Source: a virus (taxonomy: Duplodnaviria; Caudoviricetes). From it: DNA of 64,000 nucleotides. The stretch is from positions 32,001-96,000 of IMG/VR virus record IMGVR_UViG_3300044652_000025. The stretch is one strand, 5' to 3'. This document shows, one piece after another, positions 4,107 through 33,175 of this stretch. Position numbers and translations under genes: made by a program. A model generated the notes under the pieces. That model was not told the origin of the DNA. It saw only the letters and a program-made list of their open reading frames with translations, and made no database searches. Numbering within the stretch: the first letter of the stretch is position 1; the number at the start of each line of letters is the position of its first letter.

Positions 4107-4417
4107 GCGCTCTCCTGTAGTCGGAGTTTGGATGGGCGGCGCCGCTCAGTCGACAGCCGCCCGTCCCCTAGTCAGCCTTTCCGGTCGCTTCCCCCCAGAG
4201 CGTCACCGAGGTGACGAGTACGGGCTGGCAGTTAGTCCGGCGTGACCGTGCAGAGCGGGGAGCCGGGAGGAGGAGTTTCCTGCTCCCCCCGACACTCATA
4301 GATTACCCGCTACAAGAATTCTAACGCACCGATTACTCGGTCATATCGGGGCAGATCTACTGCCTCATCGAAAAATGATGGGTGGCCGAGACGAGGCCCG
4401 GCCACCCTGGTGCGACC

Positions 4418-4543
4418 TCAGCCCTGCGGCTGCGGCTGCGGCTGGTTGGGGTCCGGCTGGTTCGGCTGAGGCTGGTTCGGGTCCGGCTGCTGGGGCTGGT
4501 TCGGGTCAGGCTGGTTCGGCTGGTTCGGCTGCTGGGTGGCCAT
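4418..4543 (-). CDS. 41-aa Q/P/N low-complexity peptide
   Basis: ATG at 4543 with CAGGAGG RBS; QPNQP/DPNQP repeats. Confidence 0.55.
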   Translation of the reverse strand: MATQQPNQPNQPDPNQPQQPDPNQPQPNQPDPNQPQPQPQG

Positions 4544-24883: not shown

Positions 24884-25130
24884 CGCCCTCCTGTGGTGGC
24901 TCGGGCATCGCCTCGATCACTTGCTCCAACTCCTCGACGTCGCCGTAGATGTCATGGAGAGCCTCCTTCAGGCGCCGGGCCGCCGCCTGGGCCTGCGCCT
25001 TGACCGACGCCACCTCGATCGCCGTGGAAAGGGTCAGATCGACCGGGTCGATAGGTTGGCGGACCGAAGGCTTCGTAGCGGCCGACTTCTTCCGACGCAA
25101 ACGCACCTCGGCCCCTCCGTTCGTACTCAC
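24846..25130 (-). CDS. hypothetical protein
   Basis: ORF track; overlaps neighbours. Confidence 0.5.
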   Translation of the reverse strand: MSTNGGAEVRLRRKKSAATKPSVRQPIDPVDLTLSTAIEVASVKAQAQAAARRLKEALHDIYGDVEELEQVIEAMPEPPQEGVDDLPGTGAPQA

Positions 25131-25512
25131 CGATGATCCACTCCTGTCTCTTCATGACATCCTCGACCCGGGCGAGCGCCGGAGCGAGCCGCTTCTCGTA
25201 GTCGCCCAGGGTGGGCAGGATCTCGGTGTGGTAGACGGCCAGGAGGGTGTCGACCAGCGCCCGGAGCCGGGCCAGTTCGGCCTCGGTGCGTTGGCGTTCG
25301 GCCTCCAGGACGCCCTGAAGGCGGATCAGTTCTTCTTCGGCCTGCTGGCGCTCGAACTCGACCGACTTGTCGGAATGAATTCTGCCCGCCAGGAACATGA
25401 TGACCCAGATCCCGGCCACCCCCGCGCCACCGATGAGGGTCTGGGTGGGGTCGAAGCTGGAGAGATCGGCGAGCACCATCACCCCTTCAAGGGGCGATGC
25501 CCGATGCGGCAC
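24952..25512 (-). CDS. membrane protein with coiled coil (true start ~25480)
   Basis: N-terminal TM then coiled coil; C-terminus overlaps next gene. Confidence 0.55.
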   Translation of the reverse strand: MPHRASPLEGVMVLADLSSFDPTQTLIGGAGVAGIWVIMFLAGRIHSDKSVEFERQQAEEELIRLQGVLEAERQRTEAELARLRALVDTLLAVYHTEILPTLGDYEKRLAPALARVEDVMKRQEWIIGEYERRGRGAFASEEVGRYEAFGPPTYRPGRSDPFHGDRGGVGQGAGPGGGPAPEGGSP

Positions 25513-25530
25513 AGGTGATTTCGGTGTGCC

Positions 25531-25794
25531 CTACGATGCCCGGCGGCGCAGCCGTTTGCGCTCCCGCTCCGACAGGCCGCCCCAGATCCCGAAGTTCTCG
25601 GGCTTGGTGAGGGCGTAGTCGAGACACTGGGGCCGCACGGAGCATTCGCGGCACAGCGCCTTGGGGATCTCCAGATCCTCGCCGCGGGTGGGATAGAACA
25701 ACTCGGTCTGGCCGAGGCAGGCGGCCTCCCGCTGCCAGACGTTGAAGCCCGCTTCGAGGTGGTGGTTGAAGCGCAGGACCTGCCCCATCACCAC
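25531..25794 (-). CDS. whiB: WhiB-family transcription regulator
   Basis: WQREAAC...LFYP...CRECSVRPQCLDYAL...GIWGGLSERER. Confidence 0.95.
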   Translation of the reverse strand: MVMGQVLRFNHHLEAGFNVWQREAACLGQTELFYPTRGEDLEIPKALCRECSVRPQCLDYALTKPENFGIWGGLSERERKRLRRRAS

Positions 25795-25993
25795 TTCAAG
25801 CGGCGTCAGGGCGAGTTCGACAGGCCCCGGTCAGCCGCTGCGCTTCTGGTTCTTGTTGTTGCCGTAGATCCGTTGCGGCGCGGCCCGGGACCGGCGCTTG
25901 GCCTCGTTGTGGTACTGGCGCTTCTCCTCCGGGGTCATCTCGGAGTACTTCTTGCCCATCGCCATCATCCCCTCGTCCTGACTTCAAACAAGC

Positions 25994-26701
25994 TTATCGG
26001 GCAAAGATGAGGAGCACCTCCGCCTCGGCCCGGGACTCGTGGTTGGCACCGCGCCTCATCCTGGGGGTGACGATCTCGTGGCGGGCGATGAGCGTGAAGC
26101 CGATCGACTCGCAGATCGATCGATGGGTCTCGACGACGGGCTCTCTCCGGCGCTGACCGCGGTGGGTCCGGTAGCAGTCGCTGACGTTGAGGACGAACGT
26201 CCCCGACCGGGTGAGGGGATCGTAGGGCCGCAGTACCCGATAGACCTCCTGCCAGGCGGCGTCGTGGAAGCGCCAGTAGGCGGGCTGCCAGCAGTAGAGG
26301 GTGCCGCTGTTGGCGGGATCCAGGAGCCGGGTCTCGTCGCCGGTCATCCGCCGGAGGTCGTGGGTGTAGCTCCGGCGGTGGGAGCCGTCCTTGGCCATGT
26401 GGGAGTCGGACATCCTGTTGCCGAACACCGGGCTCACCATGACCGCGTCGATGCTCTCGTCCTCGAAGGGGAGGGCCAGGGCGTTGCCCACCCGGGTGTG
26501 GGGGTGACAGGCCGCCCACTCCGGCTCGATCTCGATACCGATGGTCTCCCGCCCGGCCTGGGCCAGGTCATGGACGCGTCCGATGCCCGCCATGGGGTCG
26601 AGGACGACGCCGGTGTCGGGGAGGATCTGGTGGTTCGCGATGAAGCGGAGGATGGCCTGGCTGTACGGCGCCGGGTGGATGGGCTTGGTGGCGGTCGTCA
26701 T
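25994..26701 (-). CDS. SAM-dependent DNA amino-methyltransferase-like protein
   Basis: VLDPMAGIG, GIEIE, GNALALPF, SPVF in place of SPPY. Confidence 0.75.
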   Translation of the reverse strand: MTTATKPIHPAPYSQAILRFIANHQILPDTGVVLDPMAGIGRVHDLAQAGRETIGIEIEPEWAACHPHTRVGNALALPFEDESIDAVMVSPVFGNRMSDSHMAKDGSHRRSYTHDLRRMTGDETRLLDPANSGTLYCWQPAYWRFHDAAWQEVYRVLRPYDPLTRSGTFVLNVSDCYRTHRGQRRREPVVETHRSICESIGFTLIARHEIVTPRMRRGANHESRAEAEVLLIFAR

Positions 26702-28719
26702 CGTCTCCTCCGGGCCGGTGACGTCGGCATCCCGGGCCTGCGCCTGCCCTTGCCGAAGCCCGAGAGGGCATCGTGGGTCTCGGTCTGCTGGCCACTGTGG
26801 GGCAGGCCACCCTGGGCGGTCCCTCCCACCGGTAGCTCGGCCAGGGTCTTGCCCAGGAAGGCCGCGATCTCGGTGCCGATGAGTTCGTAGGTGCAGATGG
26901 CCAGGCAGTCACTCACGTCTTTCGTTTGTACCGGTCCTGAGGTGGGGTGGTCAACCTTGTTTGTTCCCGCCTCCTGGAGGAAGGTCAACTCCAGGTCCGC
27001 CAGTTCGTGATACGGAGCATGGACGAGTCCCAATCCCAAGGCCGTTTTAAATGTTTCATACGTCTTCCAGTTCAAAGGACCAGTAGCGTCCCGCTCGTAG
27101 ATGGTAACCCGCTTCGGGTAGTTAGCGCTACGGGCGTGCTTACGGAGACGCTGGATCAAAGCCACAGAGTTCCACTGGTCGAAGGACAATTCGTTCGGCA
27201 TGAAGGCGTCCATGTCGACGATGATGTCGTCGGCGATGGCGTCGTAGTCGATCTCGTGGTTCTCGTAGTCACCCGGCAGCCAGGCGTGGATCTTGTCGAA
27301 GACGACGTGCGGGAGACCGCGGTCGTCGTGCCCGGCGACGTGGGCGATGGCCCAGCCGAAGTTGGCGCCGCTCTTGGACGGGTCGCCGTGGGCTCGGTAG
27401 GTCCGACTCAGGATCCCTTGGTGCTGCATCGTCAGGACGTCGCTCTCGGTCGGCCAGGGCTTCCACATGTCAGCGATCCGGTCCGGCCGGAGGTACGCGT
27501 CCAAGACGCTGGCCCAATGAGCGCGCCGCTCGACGGCGAACGTTTCAGGATTGGCAGCTTCTAACCGCTGCATCTCGGCGTCGAAGGTCTGGACCGCGTT
27601 GCGCAGGGCCGGGAAGAAGATCGGCCGCGACACCTGGGGGACGGCGTCGCGGATGTGGGCCGGGGGTGGGATCACCCGCTCCGGCCGGGCCTCCAGCCGG
27701 TGGTGAGGATCCGCGGTGCGCTCCCAGTCAACGTAGGTGTCCCAGCTTGCCAACTGGGCCATGAAGAGGGCCGGGAAGCTCGGCTTGCCGTCCTCATCGT
27801 GCTGGAGCGCCTTGCTGTAGTTGTCGAAGAACGCCCCCAGCCGCTGCCACGGCGACGACGCCTCCCACAGGAAGCCCCACTGCTGGAACTGGTCGAGGGA
27901 CGGGACGGCCGACTCGTAGACCTCGCTGGCGTCGGCCTTGGCCACGGCCCGGACGACGTGCGCCATCTCATCGAAGAACAACATCGCGCTGGCCGGGCCT
28001 CGGGCGGCCATCGTCGTTGCCTCTCTGGCCTCGATGATGAAGGTGGCCATGTCGGCCTCGGTCCCGATGCCTCGGTCGTGGCGGTCGAGCATCCTGATGA
28101 AGTCGTGCGGGGCGTAGACGGTGAAGCTCTCCCCCAGGACCCGGCTGATGTAGGGAGCGAAGCACGGCGCCCCGACGATGACGTTGTTCAAGTCCTTCCA
28201 CTGATGCGCTCGGGCCTGCTCCCGCTTACCGGCGAAGGCCATGGTGGCGATCTGCTTGTCGCGGTCGATTCCGAAGTGACCTTGCGGGTCTCCGAGCGAC
28301 AGGTAGTTCCACAAGACGTACGACCCGGCCAGGGCACCGAGGTAGCCCTTGCCGCCACGTCGACCGATGGGCAGGACCACCTCTCTGAACCACTTCCGGC
28401 CCTCGGCCTTGTTGATCTCGATCCGCTCGAAAATGTCAACAACGAGACCGTTGTTGCCCTCGCCCCGTTCGTCAGCCGACTCCCGGAACTTCGTCGTCCA
28501 TTCGTCAACGACCTCGTAGTCGTAGTCGGTCAGCAGGTCGTCACGAAGGAAAATCAACTTCAACAATGTGGCTTGCCTCGGGTACAGCGTCCGGCCCAAA
28601 TATGCGTCCGAGAGAATGAACTCAATCGGGTCCGGGACCTGAGCCTCAAATCCCGCGACGAGTTCAAAGACCCGCAGGGGGTCGAGGTCGGGCATGAATC
28701 GTCGGGTCCTGGCGGGCAT
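26698..28719 (-). CDS. terL: terminase large subunit
   Basis: YPRQ, GRRGGKG Walker A, LFFDE Walker B, HGDP / FDQWN / KDVSD RNaseH-type nuclease residues. Confidence 0.88.
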   Translation of the reverse strand: MPARTRRFMPDLDPLRVFELVAGFEAQVPDPIEFILSDAYLGRTLYPRQATLLKLIFLRDDLLTDYDYEVVDEWTTKFRESADERGEGNNGLVVDIFERIEINKAEGRKWFREVVLPIGRRGGKGYLGALAGSYVLWNYLSLGDPQGHFGIDRDKQIATMAFAGKREQARAHQWKDLNNVIVGAPCFAPYISRVLGESFTVYAPHDFIRMLDRHDRGIGTEADMATFIIEAREATTMAARGPASAMLFFDEMAHVVRAVAKADASEVYESAVPSLDQFQQWGFLWEASSPWQRLGAFFDNYSKALQHDEDGKPSFPALFMAQLASWDTYVDWERTADPHHRLEARPERVIPPPAHIRDAVPQVSRPIFFPALRNAVQTFDAEMQRLEAANPETFAVERRAHWASVLDAYLRPDRIADMWKPWPTESDVLTMQHQGILSRTYRAHGDPSKSGANFGWAIAHVAGHDDRGLPHVVFDKIHAWLPGDYENHEIDYDAIADDIIVDMDAFMPNELSFDQWNSVALIQRLRKHARSANYPKRVTIYERDATGPLNWKTYETFKTALGLGLVHAPYHELADLELTFLQEAGTNKVDHPTSGPVQTKDVSDCLAICTYELIGTEIAAFLGKTLAELPVGGTAQGGLPHSGQQTETHDALSGFGKGRRRPGMPTSPARRRR

Positions 28720-28740
28720 CGTTATCCACTCTAAGTGAAA

Positions 28741-28767
28741 CGGTCGAGGGCTTCATACCCTCGACCG
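28741..28767 (-). terminator. intrinsic terminator closing the RAMP-array operon
   Basis: 10-bp perfect stem CGGTCGAGGG/CCCTCGACCG followed by TTTCACTT on minus strand. Confidence 0.85.
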
Positions 28768-28778
28768 CTCCACCCATG

Positions 28779-29333
28779 ACTGCCATGCCGAACTCGAACC
28801 TGACGAGCATCGCCGCGCCAAGCCCCGCCGACCCACGCCTTGACTGCCGAGTCGAGACCAGCCTACGCCCGCCTAACCGCGGCGAACCCAGCCCTGACTG
28901 CCGAGCCATTCCACGTCCAGACACGCCGTGCCATGACTGCCGCGGCACGACCCGCCTCTCCTAGCCTACGCGTGCCTCACCTCTCCGAGGCTGCCGGGCC
29001 AGGCCCAACCATCGCTGGTCAAGCCCAGCCAAGCCGCACCCTGACTGCCTCGCCCTAACGGGCCATGCCTGTCCATGCACCTCCTCAACGGGCCGTACCT
29101 TGCCACTGCTGCCAGGCCAACGCCTGCCGTGATGTACCAAGCCCTGCCGAGACGAGACCGTCCCCTCCACACCGCTACTGCCCTGACCTACCGGGCCTAG
29201 CCTCTACACGCCCGTCCTAGCCATTGCTGGCGAGCCGAGCCGAACCGCTCCATGACCTTGCGCACTTGCCCTGCCATACCAAGACTGCCGAGCCTTGCCG
29301 CGGCCTGCCTAGCCTCACCAAACCGAGGCTGCC
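28779..29333 (-). ncRNA. guide-RNA array 2: 10 units of GGCA+(GGY-like NN)n
   Basis: Delimiter spacings (+ strand order) 64,54,39,54,54,64,69,49,58,44; 5-nt periodicity; no credible ORF. Confidence 0.85.
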
Positions 29334-29337
29334 ATTC

Positions 29338-29364
29338 ACCGGGGCCGGTGGCTCCGACCCCGGT
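29338..29364 (-). other. RNA hairpin between accessory gene and array 2
   Basis: 11-bp stem whose one mismatch is a G-U pair only on the minus-strand transcript. Confidence 0.7.
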
Positions 29365-29370
29365 CGCTGG

Positions 29371-29871
29371 CTAGACCGCCTCGGCCTCTCCGTCGTCGTC
29401 GTCGCGGTCGATGTCATCGAGCGCGGCCCAGACTCCGGCCAGAGCACTGAGGTGCCGGTACCGGCGCCGCAGAGCCTGGAGGGCGACCAACGCATCTTTG
29501 AGCATCTGATTTCTCAGATCCTCGCGGTCGACCACCGTCTGAGTGTTGGTGTAGCCACGGTCACCGTCCTTCCGGACCGAGACGAAGGCGACGATGGGTT
29601 CGTCACTGCCCTCGACCACGATGCGGATGTCTCTGATGATCCGGCGAGCCTGACTCAGCCAATACTGCTCGGCGGCGTGGTTTTTGTCCCACCCACGCCA
29701 GTCGGCCATGTTGTGCAACGGCGAGTTGCGCTTCTTGGCCTCGGCTACCAACGCGTGCGGGGTGCAGACACCGTCGCGGTCCTCGATCTTCTTGATCTCG
29801 CCGTAGACGATGTTGGCGTCGACACCATGGCTCTGCTTCCACGACACGAACGCTGTCGGTTCTCCACTCAT
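29371..29871 (-). CDS. accessory protein of the RAMP-array system, 166 aa
   Basis: AAAGGAGG RBS; TP..LV..A...SPLH...W....AAEQY.L.QARRII motif; sits between the two arrays. Confidence 0.85.
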   Translation of the reverse strand: MSGEPTAFVSWKQSHGVDANIVYGEIKKIEDRDGVCTPHALVAEAKKRNSPLHNMADWRGWDKNHAAEQYWLSQARRIIRDIRIVVEGSDEPIVAFVSVRKDGDRGYTNTQTVVDREDLRNQMLKDALVALQALRRRYRHLSALAGVWAALDDIDRDDDDGEAEAV

Positions 29872-29893
29872 TTTTCAATCACCTCCTTTCGAT

Positions 29894-30929
29894 CCTGCCG
29901 TGACAAGCCAAACCGATCCGGGCCAAGCCCAAACGGGCCTAACCGCGCCAAGCCACGACTGCCGTTACCAACCCGGACCTGCCTGGCCGAACCTGACCGG
30001 GACGAGCCTTGCCTGGACTGGCGAGGCTTGCCGGGCCGTAACACGACTAGACCGGCCTATCCCTGCCCTGACTGCCATGCCTAAACCTGCCCTGGCTTGC
30101 CATGACGACCTAGCCCTACCACTGCTGCCGTGACCAGCCTGGCCGGTCCACGACGCTCCTAGCCGAGCCGTACCTTGCCTCGTCTGCCACGCCCTGCGAA
30201 GCCATCGCTTGCCCATCCTGACCATGGCTGCCGAGCCGGGACCGTCCCAAGCCGGGCACACCTAGCCACTCCATGACTGCCAAACCGGGACCTGCCTGGC
30301 CTGGACACACCTGGCCGAGCCGACCCGCACCTTGCCACTGCTGCCATGACGAACCGCTCCATGCCGTTGCGTGCCGCGACCTGCCAAGCCTTGGCGAGGC
30401 TGCCGAGACCTGACTGGCGACGCCAAGCCGGGCCTGGACATCCCGCGCAACGCCCTGACTCGACTGCCCTGCCAAACCCATCCGGGCCGTGACATGCCAC
30501 CCGAGCCGTGCCTGGGCTGCCGTGCCGCACCTGACCTCGACGGGACCAGACCATCCTGGCCCAGCCAAGCGCAGACCCGCCTCGACTGCCCTACCTCGCC
30601 AAGCCCTGCCTCGGCCCGACCCGGAGATCCAGGCCGAGGCTGGCTGGCCACACCGTGCCTCGACGCTGCGAGACATGCACCGCCTAGCCCATCCTCTACT
30701 GCCATGACCGGCCATGCGTTGCCACGGCGAGCCTTGGCCGGACCGGACCTGACGATCCAAGCCCAACCATGGCTGCCGCTCCACTGCTGCCCTGACAAGC
30801 CTTGGCTCGACGTGCCCCTGCGGGAGTCGCCGGGCCAAGCCACTGCTGCCATGCCGTGACCCGCCATGACATACCGGGGCGCACACCGCCCATACATGAC
30901 CGGGCGAGCCGAGCCATGCCGTGTCTGCC
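29894..30929 (-). ncRNA. guide-RNA array 1: 18 units of GGCA+(GGY-like NN)n
   Basis: Delimiter spacings (+ strand order) 64,59,54,53,59,44,49,64,59,64,53,69,54,59,74,14,59,79. Confidence 0.88.
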
Positions 30930-30954
30930 AAGGGGTCACTTACTGCTCCGGGTC

Positions 30955-31593
30955 CTAGTTGCTGACCTGGAACATTCCGTACGAACCGGACGCCGACTTC
31001 GGCGCCGACGGCCGCCACTCACCAACCCCACCGAGACCGGCGGCGTCGACCAGAGCGAAGACCGACGAGGCGTCGAGCATGTGCGGCAGGTACGTGACCT
31101 TGAGGATGGCCGACCACGGCCAGAAGCCAGCCCGGTAGCGGATGTCAGCGACACCCGACTCCAACCTGACCATGTCCTCACGCATGTGAGGCTCGGCCGA
31201 AATCGCCACCAGGTCGGTCCCCTCCTCGGGGTTGATGAAGAGGGCGGCCTTGGCCTGGACCATGGTCAAGCCGTCGAAGTGCCTCACGGCGCCGACGAGA
31301 GCGGCCTTGAAGGCGGTGGCGGGGATGGCGCAGCGGCCGTCGGGGAGCCGGTAGATGGACGACTCGTAGTCGGCCTGCGGGTCCTTCGGCTCCTTCTTCG
31401 GCTTGGTGCCGCGAGCCATCTGGCTCTCCAACATCATTCTCTTGGCCTTCTCGGACCAGCGGTGGGTGATCAACTCGGAGGTGCCCTCGATCGGGACCTC
31501 GATGGTGACGCGCTCCAGGCGCTTCAGGACGACGGTGGGACCCTCGGTGACGCCAGCGACCTTCCCGGCGCCATTGGTTTTGGTCATTGCCAT
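30955..31593 (-). CDS. Cas7/RAMP-like RNA-binding protein (Vipr-like), 212 aa
   Basis: IEGTSELITH first strand, IPATAFKAAL helix, C-terminal Gly loop GLGGVGEWRP...GSYGMF; ATG 31593 with CAGGAG RBS. Confidence 0.8.
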   Translation of the reverse strand: MAMTKTNGAGKVAGVTEGPTVVLKRLERVTIEVPIEGTSELITHRWSEKAKRMMLESQMARGTKPKKEPKDPQADYESSIYRLPDGRCAIPATAFKAALVGAVRHFDGLTMVQAKAALFINPEEGTDLVAISAEPHMREDMVRLESGVADIRYRAGFWPWSAILKVTYLPHMLDASSVFALVDAAGLGGVGEWRPSAPKSASGSYGMFQVSN

Positions 31594-31633
31594 TGGTTCT
31601 GCTCCTGTAGTCGGAAGTGAACTGTTGCAAGTA

Positions 31634-31661
31634 ACCTTAGCACGTATAACGGGTCCGTCAA
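31634..31661 (-). promoter_or_regulatory. promoter of RAMP-array operon TTGACG-N16-TAAGGT with extended -10 TG
   Basis: 40 nt upstream of start codon; TGCTAAGGT shared with promoter at 37207. Confidence 0.7.
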
Positions 31662-31735
31662 CCGGGGTCCTTCGGACATATGGGCGCGAAAATGCCCCCT
31701 CCACTGGGGAAGGGGGCGAGATCCTGTCTTCTCTG

Positions 31736-32104
31736 CTAGGCGGCGTCAGCGAAGGCGGTGGCCATCGGGGTCCCGGCGTAGGCGGCGTTGGCGTCGTCGG
31801 TGCCGACCGTCACCCGGGGCGGATCGATCCCGCACGGCCACTCGGCGGTGATCCCCCAGGGGCGGCAGTCGCAGCCGCCGCAGCGGTAGTCGCCGTCCTC
31901 CCAGCCGCCGGTGTTGATGAAGTAGTGGGTCTTGCGGTTGGCCTCGATCTCCTCGGCGGTCCCGGGGAACGACATCGGCATGTTGACGGCCACAAGGCTC
32001 CTTTCGAGCGGGGAAGAGAAGGAAACCCCGGGACGCTTCTGATCCGAGCAGGAACGGGCGGCTTGGCCCGCACTTCCCCGGAGCTTCCTTCTCCCCTCCG
32101 ACAC
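31736..32104 (-). CDS. Cys-containing hypothetical protein (true start ~31990)
   Basis: CGGCDC..WPC; AAGGAG RBS. Confidence 0.65.
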   Translation of the reverse strand: MSEGRRKLRGSAGQAARSCSDQKRPGVSFSSPLERSLVAVNMPMSFPGTAEEIEANRKTHYFINTGGWEDGDYRCGGCDCRPWGITAEWPCGIDPPRVTVGTDDANAAYAGTPMATAFADAA

Positions 32105-32106
32105 TT

Positions 32107-32135
32107 GACTTATACCCGCTCAGGGATCTTTGAAA
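32107..32135 (-). promoter_or_regulatory. early promoter family member TTTCAA-N17-TAAGTC
   Basis: Spacer AGATCCCTGAGCGGGTA. Confidence 0.7.
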
Positions 32136-32194
32136 CACGCGTCGGAGCCCTCCCCCGAGGAAGTTGAAGGGGGAGGGCTCCGGGCGCCTGGCGG

Positions 32195-33175
32195 TTACTT
32201 CTTCTTGCGGCTCTTCGGGATCGGGAGCTTCTTGACGTCGCTCCCGGCGATGATCCCGGCGTTGTAGTGCTTGGCCAGGGCGTCGGCGATGGCCCGCGGC
32301 TTGCTGGTGTAGTGCTCCTTCGAGTTGCGGATCGGGTCGGCCAGCGCCGATGGCGGCCACTGCCGGAGCGTCACGATGAGGTGACCCTCGTCGAACAGCG
32401 GGGTCTTGACCAGGCCGCCCTGCTCGTCGACCGACAGCTTGGTGTAGCGCCGGACGAACTCCCCGACGGACTGGAGCGTGAGGTACGCCCAGGCGTCCGG
32501 ATACTGCTGCTGGACCCAGGACTTGTTGATGACCCGGAAGACCGTGGCCAGCCCGTCCTCGCCGATGGTGGCGTACATCTTGCGGAGCGCCTTGACGGCG
32601 GTGATGCCACCGAGACCCACGGTCAGGCCGTTGTCGGAGGCGATCCGGTCGACGGCCACCGCCTCGGGGTCACCGGCCTTGAGGTCGGTCTTGTAGAGGT
32701 CCGTCGGCGAGAAGCTCGTCCGGCCCCGGTGGATGGTGCCGGTCTGGTTGGCCTCGGCACCGACGCTCATACCCTTGTGGACCCAGCAGGGCACCTGCAT
32801 GTCCGGGTTGATGATCTGGGCCACGATGGTCCGGTGCTGGCCCTCGGGCGACCAGAGGCTGGCGTCGGGACGCTCGTTGACGTCGATGGGCTCGAAGGCG
32901 TAGGGGTCGAAGTTCCTGATCAGATCCTTGGCCTTCTTCAGGTTGATTCGCCGCTGGTAGCTCTTGTCGACGTTGATGTCCCCGGCCCGGACGTAGCGGA
33001 GTTCGCCGGTGAGCTTCATCTCCGCCAGTTCCTGGCGGCGCTCCTCGGGGATCTCCTTCTCGTACCAGTCGCGCAGGGCCTTGAGCTTGTCCTCCTCGGA
33101 CAGTTCGGTCCGGGGGCGCCTCGGGGTGGGAGTCTCCTCCTCGTCCGCGAGGTCGAGGTCGTCGTCTTCACTCAT
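32195..33175 (-). CDS. ParB/Srx-like N-terminal domain protein
   Basis: VDKSYQR..., IDVNER, EGQHR motif. Confidence 0.8.
   Translation of the reverse strand: MSEDDDLDLADEEETPTPRRPRTELSEEDKLKALRDWYEKEIPEERRQELAEMKLTGELRYVRAGDINVDKSYQRRINLKKAKDLIRNFDPYAFEPIDVNERPDASLWSPEGQHRTIVAQIINPDMQVPCWVHKGMSVGAEANQTGTIHRGRTSFSPTDLYKTDLKAGDPEAVAVDRIASDNGLTVGLGGITAVKALRKMYATIGEDGLATVFRVINKSWVQQQYPDAWAYLTLQSVGEFVRRYTKLSVDEQGGLVKTPLFDEGHLIVTLRQWPPSALADPIRNSKEHYTSKPRAIADALAKHYNAGIIAGSDVKKLPIPKSRKKK

What the first reader, a model, noticed from the sequence alone, without database searches (positions are those of the whole stretch)
28785..28848. Last guide unit decodes to a terminase motif, and the phage's own copy is recoded
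Seen: NN on the + strand = AT GA CG CT GA TC GC AA CC GA AC TT. As codon positions 1-2 this is M-E-R-L-E-S-A-N-P-E-T-F. The neighbouring terL reads MQRLEAANPETF at 27538-27573 (ATG CAG CGG TTA GAA GCT GCC AAT CCT GAA ACG TTC): 9/12 dinucleotides, 21/24 nt. One mismatch is a synonymous CTN-to-TTA swap, a very rare codon in this genome. A rough uniform-base estimate puts the chance over this window and 28 units near 1e-3. Inference: the guide targets terL of a related competitor phage while self has escaped, or it tunes the phage's own late expression.
Basis: partly seen in the sequence, partly recalled or inferred. Interest (0 to 1): 0.93.

Follow-up and report, generated by a model that had tools for sequence, protein, structure and literature searches.

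The report
VIPR guide RNA matching phage terminase
This 64-base stretch is one guide RNA of a phage-borne VIPR system, a CRISPR-related silencer first described in 2026 that reads two of every three target bases. It nearly matches the phage's own terminase gene and fits the terminase genes of some other phages slightly better, which fits phage-against-phage competition.

Summary
Window 28785-28848 is 12 pentamers (NN plus a C-ending triplet) closed by TGCC. Its NN string matches codon positions 1-2 of terL at 27538-27573 (minus strand, in frame) at 21/24 bases and 9/12 dinucleotides. The next best site in the 151-kb genome scores 17. None of 3000 order shuffles and 1 of 3000 random units reach 21.

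VIPR combines a small RAMP protein (Vipr), GGY/NN-repeat vrRNAs and a "1-nt skip" rule that skips the wobble base. Here the 212-aa protein folds like Cas7/Csm3, and its family profile hits the solved SUSP1 Vipr chain.

Only three units exceed the shuffle null in the phage's own genome. All three are array-end units, and each hits the gene next to it (vipr, the vap-like gene, terL). Other phages' terL alleles fit the guide at 22/24. No perfect target was found. A near-identical metagenome variant carries a different end unit that also matches terL, together with a divergent terL.

Verdict: a new member of a known kind. The near-self hits and the guide-allele linkage are modest new points. This scan has already reported VIPR loci in at least 17 other genomes.

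The parts
30955..31593 (-). vipr gene (212 aa, phrog_4652), a small Cas7-like RAMP protein
   Evidence: AF2 model has pLDDT 84.5. Foldseek top hits are Csm3/Cas7/Cmr4 at probability 1.0, E about 1e-5. The family profile hits only PDB 36pp_D 'SUSP1 Vipr protein', E 3.3e-6. The C-terminal glycine-rich loop is conserved.
29900..30929 (-). vrRNA array 1: 19 units of GGY-like/NN pentamers joined by 4-nt GGCA junctions (RNA sense)
   Evidence: Period-5 signal and Viterbi parse. About 94% of the parsed pentamers in the two arrays end in C on the + strand.
30851..30929 (-). First unit of array 1 (15 pentamers). It has a near-cognate site in the phage's own vipr gene at 31168-31212.
   Evidence: 24/30 bases overall; the 8 dinucleotides nearest the RNA 5' end match 16/16. 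Vipr homologs in L036/L037 match better, at 26/30. The decoded peptide fits homologs at 13/15 against 10/15 for self.
29900..29963 (-). Last unit of array 1 (12 pentamers). It has a near-cognate site in the adjacent vap-like gene at 29542-29577.
   Evidence: 19/24 bases, above all 100 shuffles. The amino-acid-level score is 49 against a null of 32.9 +/- 2.4.
29371..29871 (-). vap-like accessory gene (166 aa, phrog_15946)
   Evidence: It is the conserved neighbour of vipr homologs in Mycobacterium and Gordonia phages and in L050/L056. AF2 pLDDT is 93. Only weak winged-helix-type fold hits were found.
29334..29370 (-). Hairpin between the vap-like gene and array 2
   Evidence: dG -35 kcal/mol, z -3.5 for the 56-nt stretch 29325-29380.
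28785..29333 (-). vrRNA array 2: 11 units
28785..28848 (-). The unit in question: the last vrRNA of array 2, 12 pentamers plus the GGCA junction
   Evidence: On its own the RNA has no significant fold (z -0.36), as expected for a protein-bound guide.
28736..28778 (-). Long hairpin directly after the last unit, upstream of the terL start codon. It is a probable array 3' end or terminator.
   Evidence: About 20-bp stem, dG -46 kcal/mol, z -8.5. It did not meet the simple terminator scan.
26698..28719 (-). terL (673 aa), large terminase subunit
   Evidence: Weak hit to phrog_9, terminase large subunit. There are 702 homologs, several carrying inteins.
27538..27573 (-). Near-cognate self site of unit 28785-28848, at terL codons 383-394
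   Evidence: 21/24 bases, in frame, with the skip base at the wobble position. It holds the only TTA codon in terL. Local GC3 is 0.50 against 0.846 for the gene.
28177..28212 (-). Second terL site (codons 170-181). It is matched by the alternative end unit carried by variant contig L004.
   Evidence: 19/24 here, 16/24 on L004's own terL, and 20-21/24 on relatives' terL with the last 10 dinucleotides perfect.

Best explanation
The locus is a VIPR system in a 151-kb, 66% GC virus, probably an actinophage. On the minus strand it reads vipr, vrRNA array 1, a vap-like gene, vrRNA array 2, a hairpin, then terL. Window 28785-28848 encodes the last vrRNA of array 2.

By analogy with the published mechanism (not shown here), one Vipr protomer binds each GGY-like triplet. 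This builds a filament of about 12 subunits that presents the 12 NN dinucleotides. The filament pairs with double-stranded DNA, two bases paired and one skipped, with the skip on the codon wobble base. Binding blocks transcription.

This guide pairs with the sense strand of terL codons 383-394. Its most likely natural targets are terL alleles of related phages that compete for the same host. The phage's own allele is near-cognate: 3 of 12 dinucleotides are mismatched, all in the half nearer the RNA 3' end. I presume, without evidence, that these mismatches spare it.

The guide sits directly beside the allele it tolerates, and the two appear to be exchanged together between phage variants.

Confidence that this is a VIPR vrRNA is about 0.9. 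Confidence in the competitor-targeting, self-sparing reading for this unit is about 0.55.
For: System identity.
- The RAMP fold and the profile hit to the solved SUSP1 Vipr chain.
- Period-5 arrays with G-rich triplets on the same strand as vipr.
- 70 of 75 IMG/VR loci with a homolog of this protein also carry a period-5 tract within the fetched flanks, mostly close to the gene. Mycobacterium phage Donkeykong is one of them.
- Only the 1-nt skip rule gives matches.
- The published description fits point by point.

Function of this unit.
- 21/24 bases to the phage's own terL, in frame, p about 3e-4.
- Non-self terL alleles reach 22/24 and 11/12 dinucleotides.
- All 3 exact hits to the 11-dinucleotide pattern in JGI metagenomes lie at the homologous site of terL homologs.
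- The only three units that exceed the shuffle null in the phage's own genome are array-end units, and each hits its flanking gene.
- The vipr-directed unit fits foreign vipr genes better than self, 26/30 against 24/30.
- Independent replicate: variant L004 has a different end unit that again matches terL at another site. It is perfect over 10 dinucleotides on relatives but only 16/24 on L004's own divergent terL.
- Locus L056 shows the same habit. Its three vrRNAs match the adjacent small ORF and portal gene at 75-85%, each with p < 1/2000.
Against: - No perfect target was found in IMG/VR, JGI metagenomes or GTDB genomes.
- The best non-self alleles beat self by only one base, and they belong to fairly distant TerL proteins (48-57% amino-acid identity).
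- The self site scores 87.5%, above the 80% cut-off the preprints use. Those preprints report no self hit at that level in the clades they examined. Self-sparing is therefore an assumption.
- L004 lacks the guide yet keeps the identical site.
- No expression or processing data could be obtained.
- The 26 internal units have no significant match in this genome or in 1.5 Mb of related loci.
Confidence: 0.6

Rival explanations
1. Self-regulation. The near-cognate vrRNAs bind the phage's own vipr, vap-like and terL genes. They act as built-in repressors or timers of the VIPR operon and of late packaging genes.
For: Self matches are 87.5%, 80% and 79% NN identity, at or near the published 80% target cut-off. 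All three targets are the immediate neighbours of the arrays. L056 shows the same pattern on its portal gene. VIPR represses transcription from either strand within genes.
Against: Foreign alleles fit better than self for the terL and vipr units. L004's end unit fits its own terL poorly, at 16/24, yet is perfect over 10 dinucleotides on relatives. The preprints report that self scores are systematically lower than non-self scores, which they read as avoidance of autoimmunity.
Confidence: 0.17
2. Relic of origin. End units arise by some copying or recombination process from flanking DNA, or from a sibling phage's flank. They then decay, so the self-similarity is historical and this unit has no present target.
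For: Only array-end units resemble neighbouring genes. Units turn over between near-identical variants. At codon 388 the guide (TC) is one base from the phage's own GC but two from the family-typical CG. No perfect target was found.
Against: No mechanism is known that would rewrite a 3-nt register into a 5-nt one. The mismatches to self are conservative or synonymous at the protein level, and foreign homologs match as well or better. That looks like selection on real targets. The triplet scaffold of the unit is intact.
Confidence: 0.15
3. Chance resemblance between an NN string and terL.
For: Out-of-phase, low-complexity strings reach 20-22/24. A single chance hit to the 11-dinucleotide pattern occurs in 596 Gb of genomes, in frame in a Sphingobium gene that has no significant similarity to terL.
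Against: 0 of 3000 and 1 of 3000 composition-matched controls reach 21. The hit is in frame and in the adjacent gene. Two other end units and the L004 replacement unit behave the same way. All metagenome hits fall at the homologous terL site.
Confidence: 0.02
4. The tract is protein-coding. Gene callers place ORFs in it, and in Donkeykong the equivalent tract is annotated as gp48.
For: Open frames of 199-300 aa cross the arrays. Donkeykong gp48 is annotated as a CDS over the array.
Against: There is a strict 5-nt period with a one-base phase slip at each junction, and lag-3 autocorrelation stays low, 0.15-0.29, in these tracts. All frames are open simply because the strand is G-rich. Units are gained and lost without regard to frame.
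Confidence: 0.01

Closest known systems
VIPR systems (Vipr + vrRNA + vap), type II of Escherichia phage SUSP1 and the Pseudomonas fulva prophage (bioRxiv 10.64898/2026.04.26.720920; structures in 10.64898/2026.04.26.720927)
   Same: A small RAMP protein, an adjacent accessory gene, and guides made of GGY/NN pentamers with 9-16 repeats. Targets follow the 1-nt skip rule, with the skip on the wobble base of coding sequence. The system is phage-borne and its targets are genes of competing elements.
   Different: Protein similarity to SUSP1 Vipr is remote (profile E 3.3e-6 over about 45 residues). About 30 guides sit in two long arrays. No conserved 3' tail or pseudoknot follows each guide. The triplet is looser: GGC 38%, GUC 18%, GGU 12%, GGA 8%. 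The host is probably an actinobacterium. Self hits reach or exceed 80% NN identity, which the preprint did not see in its clades.
'Staggered' VIPR arrays with vrRNAs overlapping by 1 nt (same preprint, fig. S18 legend)
   Same: Units abut directly. The 4-nt GGCA junction can be read as two pentamers sharing one G, so the end of one guide marks the start of the next.
   Different: Only the figure legend could be read, not the figure or data S4. Identity of architecture and VIPR type is inferred, not checked. The preprint notes that staggered arrays were not confirmed by sRNA-seq.
vrRNAs that target relatives' VIPR genes (bioRxiv 10.64898/2026.10.15.759431)
   Same: Guides are directed at vipr coding sequence. 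Self-match scores are lower than non-self scores. The reading is warfare between related phages.
   Different: In that work the guides are Enterobacteriaceae SUSP1-family solo vrRNAs in vipr-null phages. Here they belong to an intact system, sit at array ends next to the gene they resemble, and one is directed at terL, an essential packaging gene.
Class 1 CRISPR Cas7 backbones (Csm3, Cmr4, type VII Cas7)
   Same: Closest solved folds to the 212-aa protein. A thumb interrupts guide-target pairing at regular intervals.
   Different: There is no CRISPR repeat-spacer array, no cas1/cas2 and no other cas genes. Pairing is 2 of 5 guide bases to 2 of 3 target bases, rather than 5 of 6.
Virus-borne mini-CRISPR arrays in inter-viral conflict, and free-standing homing endonucleases that cut relatives' alleles of the neighbouring gene (recalled from memory, not checked here)
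   Same: A weapon aimed at a close relative's version of a gene while the carrier's own version is mismatched. In the homing case the weapon lies next to the resistant allele and is inherited with it.
   Different: VIPR is reported to repress, not cut. No gene conversion has been shown. This is a functional analogy only.

Membership tests
VIPR | Vipr protein: a small (about 20 kDa), single-RRM RAMP with a glycine-rich loop and a thumb | tested here: met
   212 aa. AF2 pLDDT 84.5. Foldseek finds Csm3/Cas7/Cmr4 at probability 1.0. The profile's only PDB hit is the SUSP1 Vipr protein, E 3.3e-6. Glycines at 186, 189 and 191 are invariant and 188 is nearly invariant.
VIPR | vrRNA genes made of tandem pentamers with a conserved GGY-like triplet and hypervariable NN, flanking vipr on the same strand | tested here: met
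   Two arrays on the vipr strand. About 94% of pentamers carry the conserved G (C on the + strand). NN is near-uniform in a 66% GC genome. The same association holds in 70 of 75 related loci.
VIPR | 9-16 repeats per vrRNA | tested here: met
   This unit has 12 pentamers. Most units have 7-15, and four are short at 1-3.
VIPR | Targets follow the 1-nt skip rule, with the skipped base on the codon wobble position | tested here: met
   Best matches under 0-, 1- and 2-nt skip are 16, 21 and 17 for this unit, 17/19/15 for unit 29900, and 18/24/20 for unit 30851. All three hits start on a codon boundary.
VIPR | Adjacent vap accessory gene, one of vap1-6, predicted to interact with DNA | tested here: inconclusive
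   A conserved 150-170-aa partner gene follows vipr here and in the Mycobacterium and Gordonia phages, L050 and L056. Fold search gives only weak winged-helix-type hits.
VIPR | Invariant structured 3' tail after each repeat tract (type II architecture) | tested here: not met
   Units are separated only by GGCA. One long hairpin follows the whole array. This matches the 'staggered array' variant named in the preprint, so it does not exclude VIPR membership. It does exclude the type II layout.
VIPR | vrRNAs are expressed, processed and bound by Vipr; the RNP binds dsDNA and represses transcription | not testable with these tools
VIPR | Reported property, not defining: no self hit at 80% NN identity or above | tested here: not met
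   Self hits are 87.5% (terL), 80% (vipr) and 79% (vap-like gene).
CRISPR-Cas | Direct repeats of 25-40 nt separating contiguous spacers, plus cas1/cas2 or an effector module | tested here: not met
   The only tandem repeats found in 25000-33000 are short: periods of 6-49 nt, with at most about 3 copies. There was no Rfam hit. No Pfam family passed threshold for the three proteins tested (vipr, the vap-like protein, TerL).

The most novel reading that the evidence does not exclude
In this Vipr clade, array-end vrRNAs and the adjacent resistant alleles of essential genes (terL, portal, vipr, the vap-like gene) form linked cassettes.

In mixed infection, the guide silences the rival's allele of the very gene next to it. 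Recombinants that keep guide and tolerated allele together would then be favoured, and the pair would spread as a unit. That would be an RNA-guided analogue of marker exclusion by homing endonucleases.

The swap in L004 of the end unit together with a divergent terL would be one such event. A variant of this reading is that the near-cognate self sites also give weak self-repression that times late genes.
Probability: 0.25. Interest if true: 0.65.

Novelty: new member of a known kind. Interest (0 to 1): 0.38.

Why it matters
However, VIPR preprints from April to October 2026 already describe the system, its structures and its role in conflict between phages. This scan has also logged VIPR loci in at least 17 other genomes.

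This locus adds four points.
- It is a large example with 30 guides and no per-guide tail, in a probable actinophage. Relatives include well-known Mycobacterium phages, where the array is annotated as a hypothetical protein.
- One guide is aimed at the large terminase, an essential packaging gene.
- Self sites reach 79-88% identity. This tests the 80% rule of thumb used to call targets and raises the question of how autoimmunity is avoided.
- Guide and neighbouring target allele lie side by side and are exchanged together between near-identical phages.

The last two points can be tested directly with binding and reporter assays. They would inform mismatch-tolerance rules for VIPR as a tool.

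Tried and rejected
- Exact search for a perfect 12-dinucleotide target found nothing in IMG/VR, JGI metagenomes or GTDB genomes.
- The 11-dinucleotide pattern gave 0 hits in IMG/VR and 1 hit in GTDB genomes. That hit is a chance match in a Sphingobium gene with no significant similarity to terL.
- A Walker-A-like internal unit (30792-30850) has no exact target in IMG/VR. It also has no significant match in this genome or in related loci.
- The 10-dinucleotide core of L004's unit gave 0 hits in IMG/VR. TerL relatives of this phage are absent from IMG/VR.
- Out-of-phase array strings were rejected as a control because they are low-complexity.
- Rfam found no family. The simple promoter and terminator scans found nothing.
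- DNA similarity search of the locus against GenBank phages found no match.
- The word-based homolog search for the 166-aa protein found only itself. The exhaustive HMMER search found 7147 relatives.
- The fold of the 166-aa protein has no significant PDB match.
- The VIPR type (I-VII) could not be assigned, because the preprint's supplementary data are not held.
- A survey of 357 units in 75 related loci for near-self hits gave 15 candidates against about 9 expected by chance. Only a few, L056 above all, are convincing.

Full report
What is there. The window belongs to a single 151,490-bp virus contig of 66% GC. Two tracts, 28785-29333 and 29900-30929, have a strong 5-nt period and are the only clear ones in the genome. 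On the + strand, each tract is a chain of pentamers made of a variable dinucleotide (NN) and a triplet ending in C. The commonest triplets are GCC, GAC, ACC and TCC. TGCC or TGGC cuts the chain into units and shifts the phase by one base. A Viterbi parse gives 30 clean units, mostly of 7-15 pentamers. NN is close to uniform in composition although the genome is GC-rich. All neighbouring genes lie on the minus strand. In RNA sense the order is: a 212-aa gene, array 1, a 166-aa gene, a hairpin, array 2, a long hairpin, then terL. In that sense the units read as GGY-like triplets followed by NN.

The observation. With one base skipped after each dinucleotide, its best match in the whole genome is 27538-27573 on the minus strand, at 21/24 bases and 9/12 dinucleotides. 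That site starts exactly at terL codon 383 (peptide MQRLEAANPETF). The runner-up scores 17 in the genome. No order shuffle (0/1000, 0/3000) and 1 of 3000 random units reach 21. Skip lengths of 0 and 2 give only background. TTA is indeed very rare, at 0.44 per 1000 codons. The only TTA in terL sits in this site.

The match is not isolated. I scanned all units against the whole genome, at both nucleotide and amino-acid level. Exactly three units exceeded the shuffle null. All three are array-end units, and each hits the gene next to it, in frame and on the sense strand. This unit hits terL. Unit 29900-29963 hits the 166-aa gene at 19/24. Unit 30851-30929 hits the 212-aa gene at 24/30, with 16/16 at the RNA 5' side. 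The fourth end unit and all internal units have no significant self match.

What it is. A literature search found the June 2026 preprint on VIPR systems and two companion papers. VIPR consists of three parts: Vipr, a roughly 20-kDa ancestral RAMP; a vap accessory gene; and vrRNAs made of 9-16 GGY/NN pentamers. Vipr protomers bind the GGY triplets and present the NN dinucleotides. These pair with double-stranded DNA with one base skipped per unit, and the skipped base usually falls on the wobble position. Binding represses transcription. Natural targets are competing phages, satellites and other VIPR systems.

The locus meets the testable criteria.
- The 212-aa protein models with pLDDT 84.5, and its best structural matches are Csm3, Cas7 and Cmr4.
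- Its family profile has one PDB hit, the SUSP1 Vipr protein.
- 70 of 75 IMG/VR loci that encode a homolog also carry a period-5 tract within the fetched flanks, mostly close to the gene.
- In Mycobacterium phage Donkeykong the array is annotated as the hypothetical protein gp48.
- The 166-aa protein is the conserved neighbour of vipr homologs. It has a confident model but only weak winged-helix-like matches.
- The arrays lack a per-guide 3' tail. The GGCA junction can be read as two pentamers sharing one base, which fits the 'staggered' arrays mentioned in the preprint.

What this unit most likely does. The guide pairs with the sense strand of terL. Other phages' terL alleles fit it slightly better than self. 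L086 (MERLERANPETF) matches 22/24 bases and 11/12 dinucleotides. A search of JGI metagenomes with the 11-dinucleotide pattern returned three hits. All three are in terL homologs at the same site and in frame. The same pattern in 596 Gb of bacterial genomes gave a single unrelated hit.

At the protein level, E at codon 384 and S at codon 388 both occur in the family. CTN is the usual Leu codon in the relatives sampled. The vipr-directed unit behaves alike, at 26/30 on foreign vipr genes against 24/30 on self.

A near-identical metagenome contig, L004, is an independent replicate. It is 99.4% identical across the VIPR locus. However, it carries a patchily divergent terL (86% identity) and, in place of units 1-2, a single different unit. 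That unit's best hit is again terL, at codons 170-181. It matches relatives' terL perfectly over 10 dinucleotides, our terL at 19/24, and L004's own terL at only 16/24. Locus L056, from another phage, has three vrRNAs that match its adjacent small ORF and portal gene at 75-85%, each with p < 1/2000.

Taken together, these guides look like weapons against relatives' versions of the genes next to which they sit. This agrees with the published finding that self scores stay below non-self scores.

Limits. No perfect target was found in IMG/VR, JGI metagenomes or GTDB genomes. The self site scores 87.5%, above the 80% threshold the preprints use. Those preprints report no self hits at that level in their clades. 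Whether the three mismatched dinucleotides protect self is unknown. They all lie toward the RNA 3' end, the side from which the filament is reported to grow. L004 keeps the identical site although it lacks the guide. The TTA and the local low GC3 (0.50 against 0.846) therefore cannot be tied to carrying this guide. Wobble changes would not affect a guide that skips wobble bases anyway. Self-regulation of terL and a historical-relic reading remain possible. Expression could not be checked.

Verdict. This is a new member of a known kind. Its modest new points are a terminase-directed guide, near-self hits at or above the usual target threshold, and physical linkage and joint exchange of guide and neighbouring allele.

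Noticed in passing
L001:3480-3866 (Mycobacterium phage Donkeykong, NC_051648.1 36870-37256): The annotated gene 48 'hypothetical protein' is a GGCNN pentamer array lying directly upstream of the vipr homolog gp49. It is probably a vrRNA array, not a CDS. Other listed Mycobacterium and Gordonia phages carry the same gene pair. Gene callers also placed 199-225-aa ORFs inside the arrays of L003 and L004.
   Followed up: partly
L050:6100-7720 (IMGVR_UViG_3300047089_000307); also L051 and L056:2325-2360: Arrays here are built of several modules. Each module is preceded by a conserved leader of about 36 nt (GGGAGCAGCAGCATCCGGCG.AAAGGGATGGAC). This differs from the leaderless arrays in the window. 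The leader may be a promoter or a processing site.
   Followed up: no
window 30405-30644 versus L003: Near-identical contig L003 (98.6% identity) has units 21-25 of array 1 replaced or rearranged, and single NN changes in two other units. vrRNA arrays therefore turn over by whole units between very close phages.
   Followed up: partly
window 27544-27579 and 27052-27087 (terL); L056:3762-3794 (portal): Local patches of AT-ending codons occur in otherwise high-GC3 genes. Two of them coincide with near-self vrRNA sites: GC3 is 0.50 in the terL site and 3/11 in the L056 portal site. Wobble bases are skipped by VIPR, so the cause is unclear. Imported patches or pressure from contiguous-guide systems are possibilities. 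The vipr self site does not show the effect.
   Followed up: partly
window 28736-28778, minus strand: A very stable hairpin of about 20 bp (dG -46 kcal/mol, z -8.5) lies between the last vrRNA and the terL start codon. It has only a short U run. It could be a terminator, a processing signal or an array-level 3' handle.
   Followed up: partly
TerL homologs P0136, P0152, P0163, P0195, P0198, P0237: Several homologs of this terminase are 900-1100 aa long and carry intein or LAGLIDADG domains (PF14528, PF14890). This terL family is thus also a target of selfish protein-level elements.
   Followed up: no
window 4417-4496: A tRNA-Pro (GGG) gene is the only tRNA in the window.
   Followed up: no
window 29290-29333: The fourth array-end unit (first of array 2, next to the 3' end of the 166-aa gene) is the only end unit with no match to a neighbouring gene.
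   Followed up: partly
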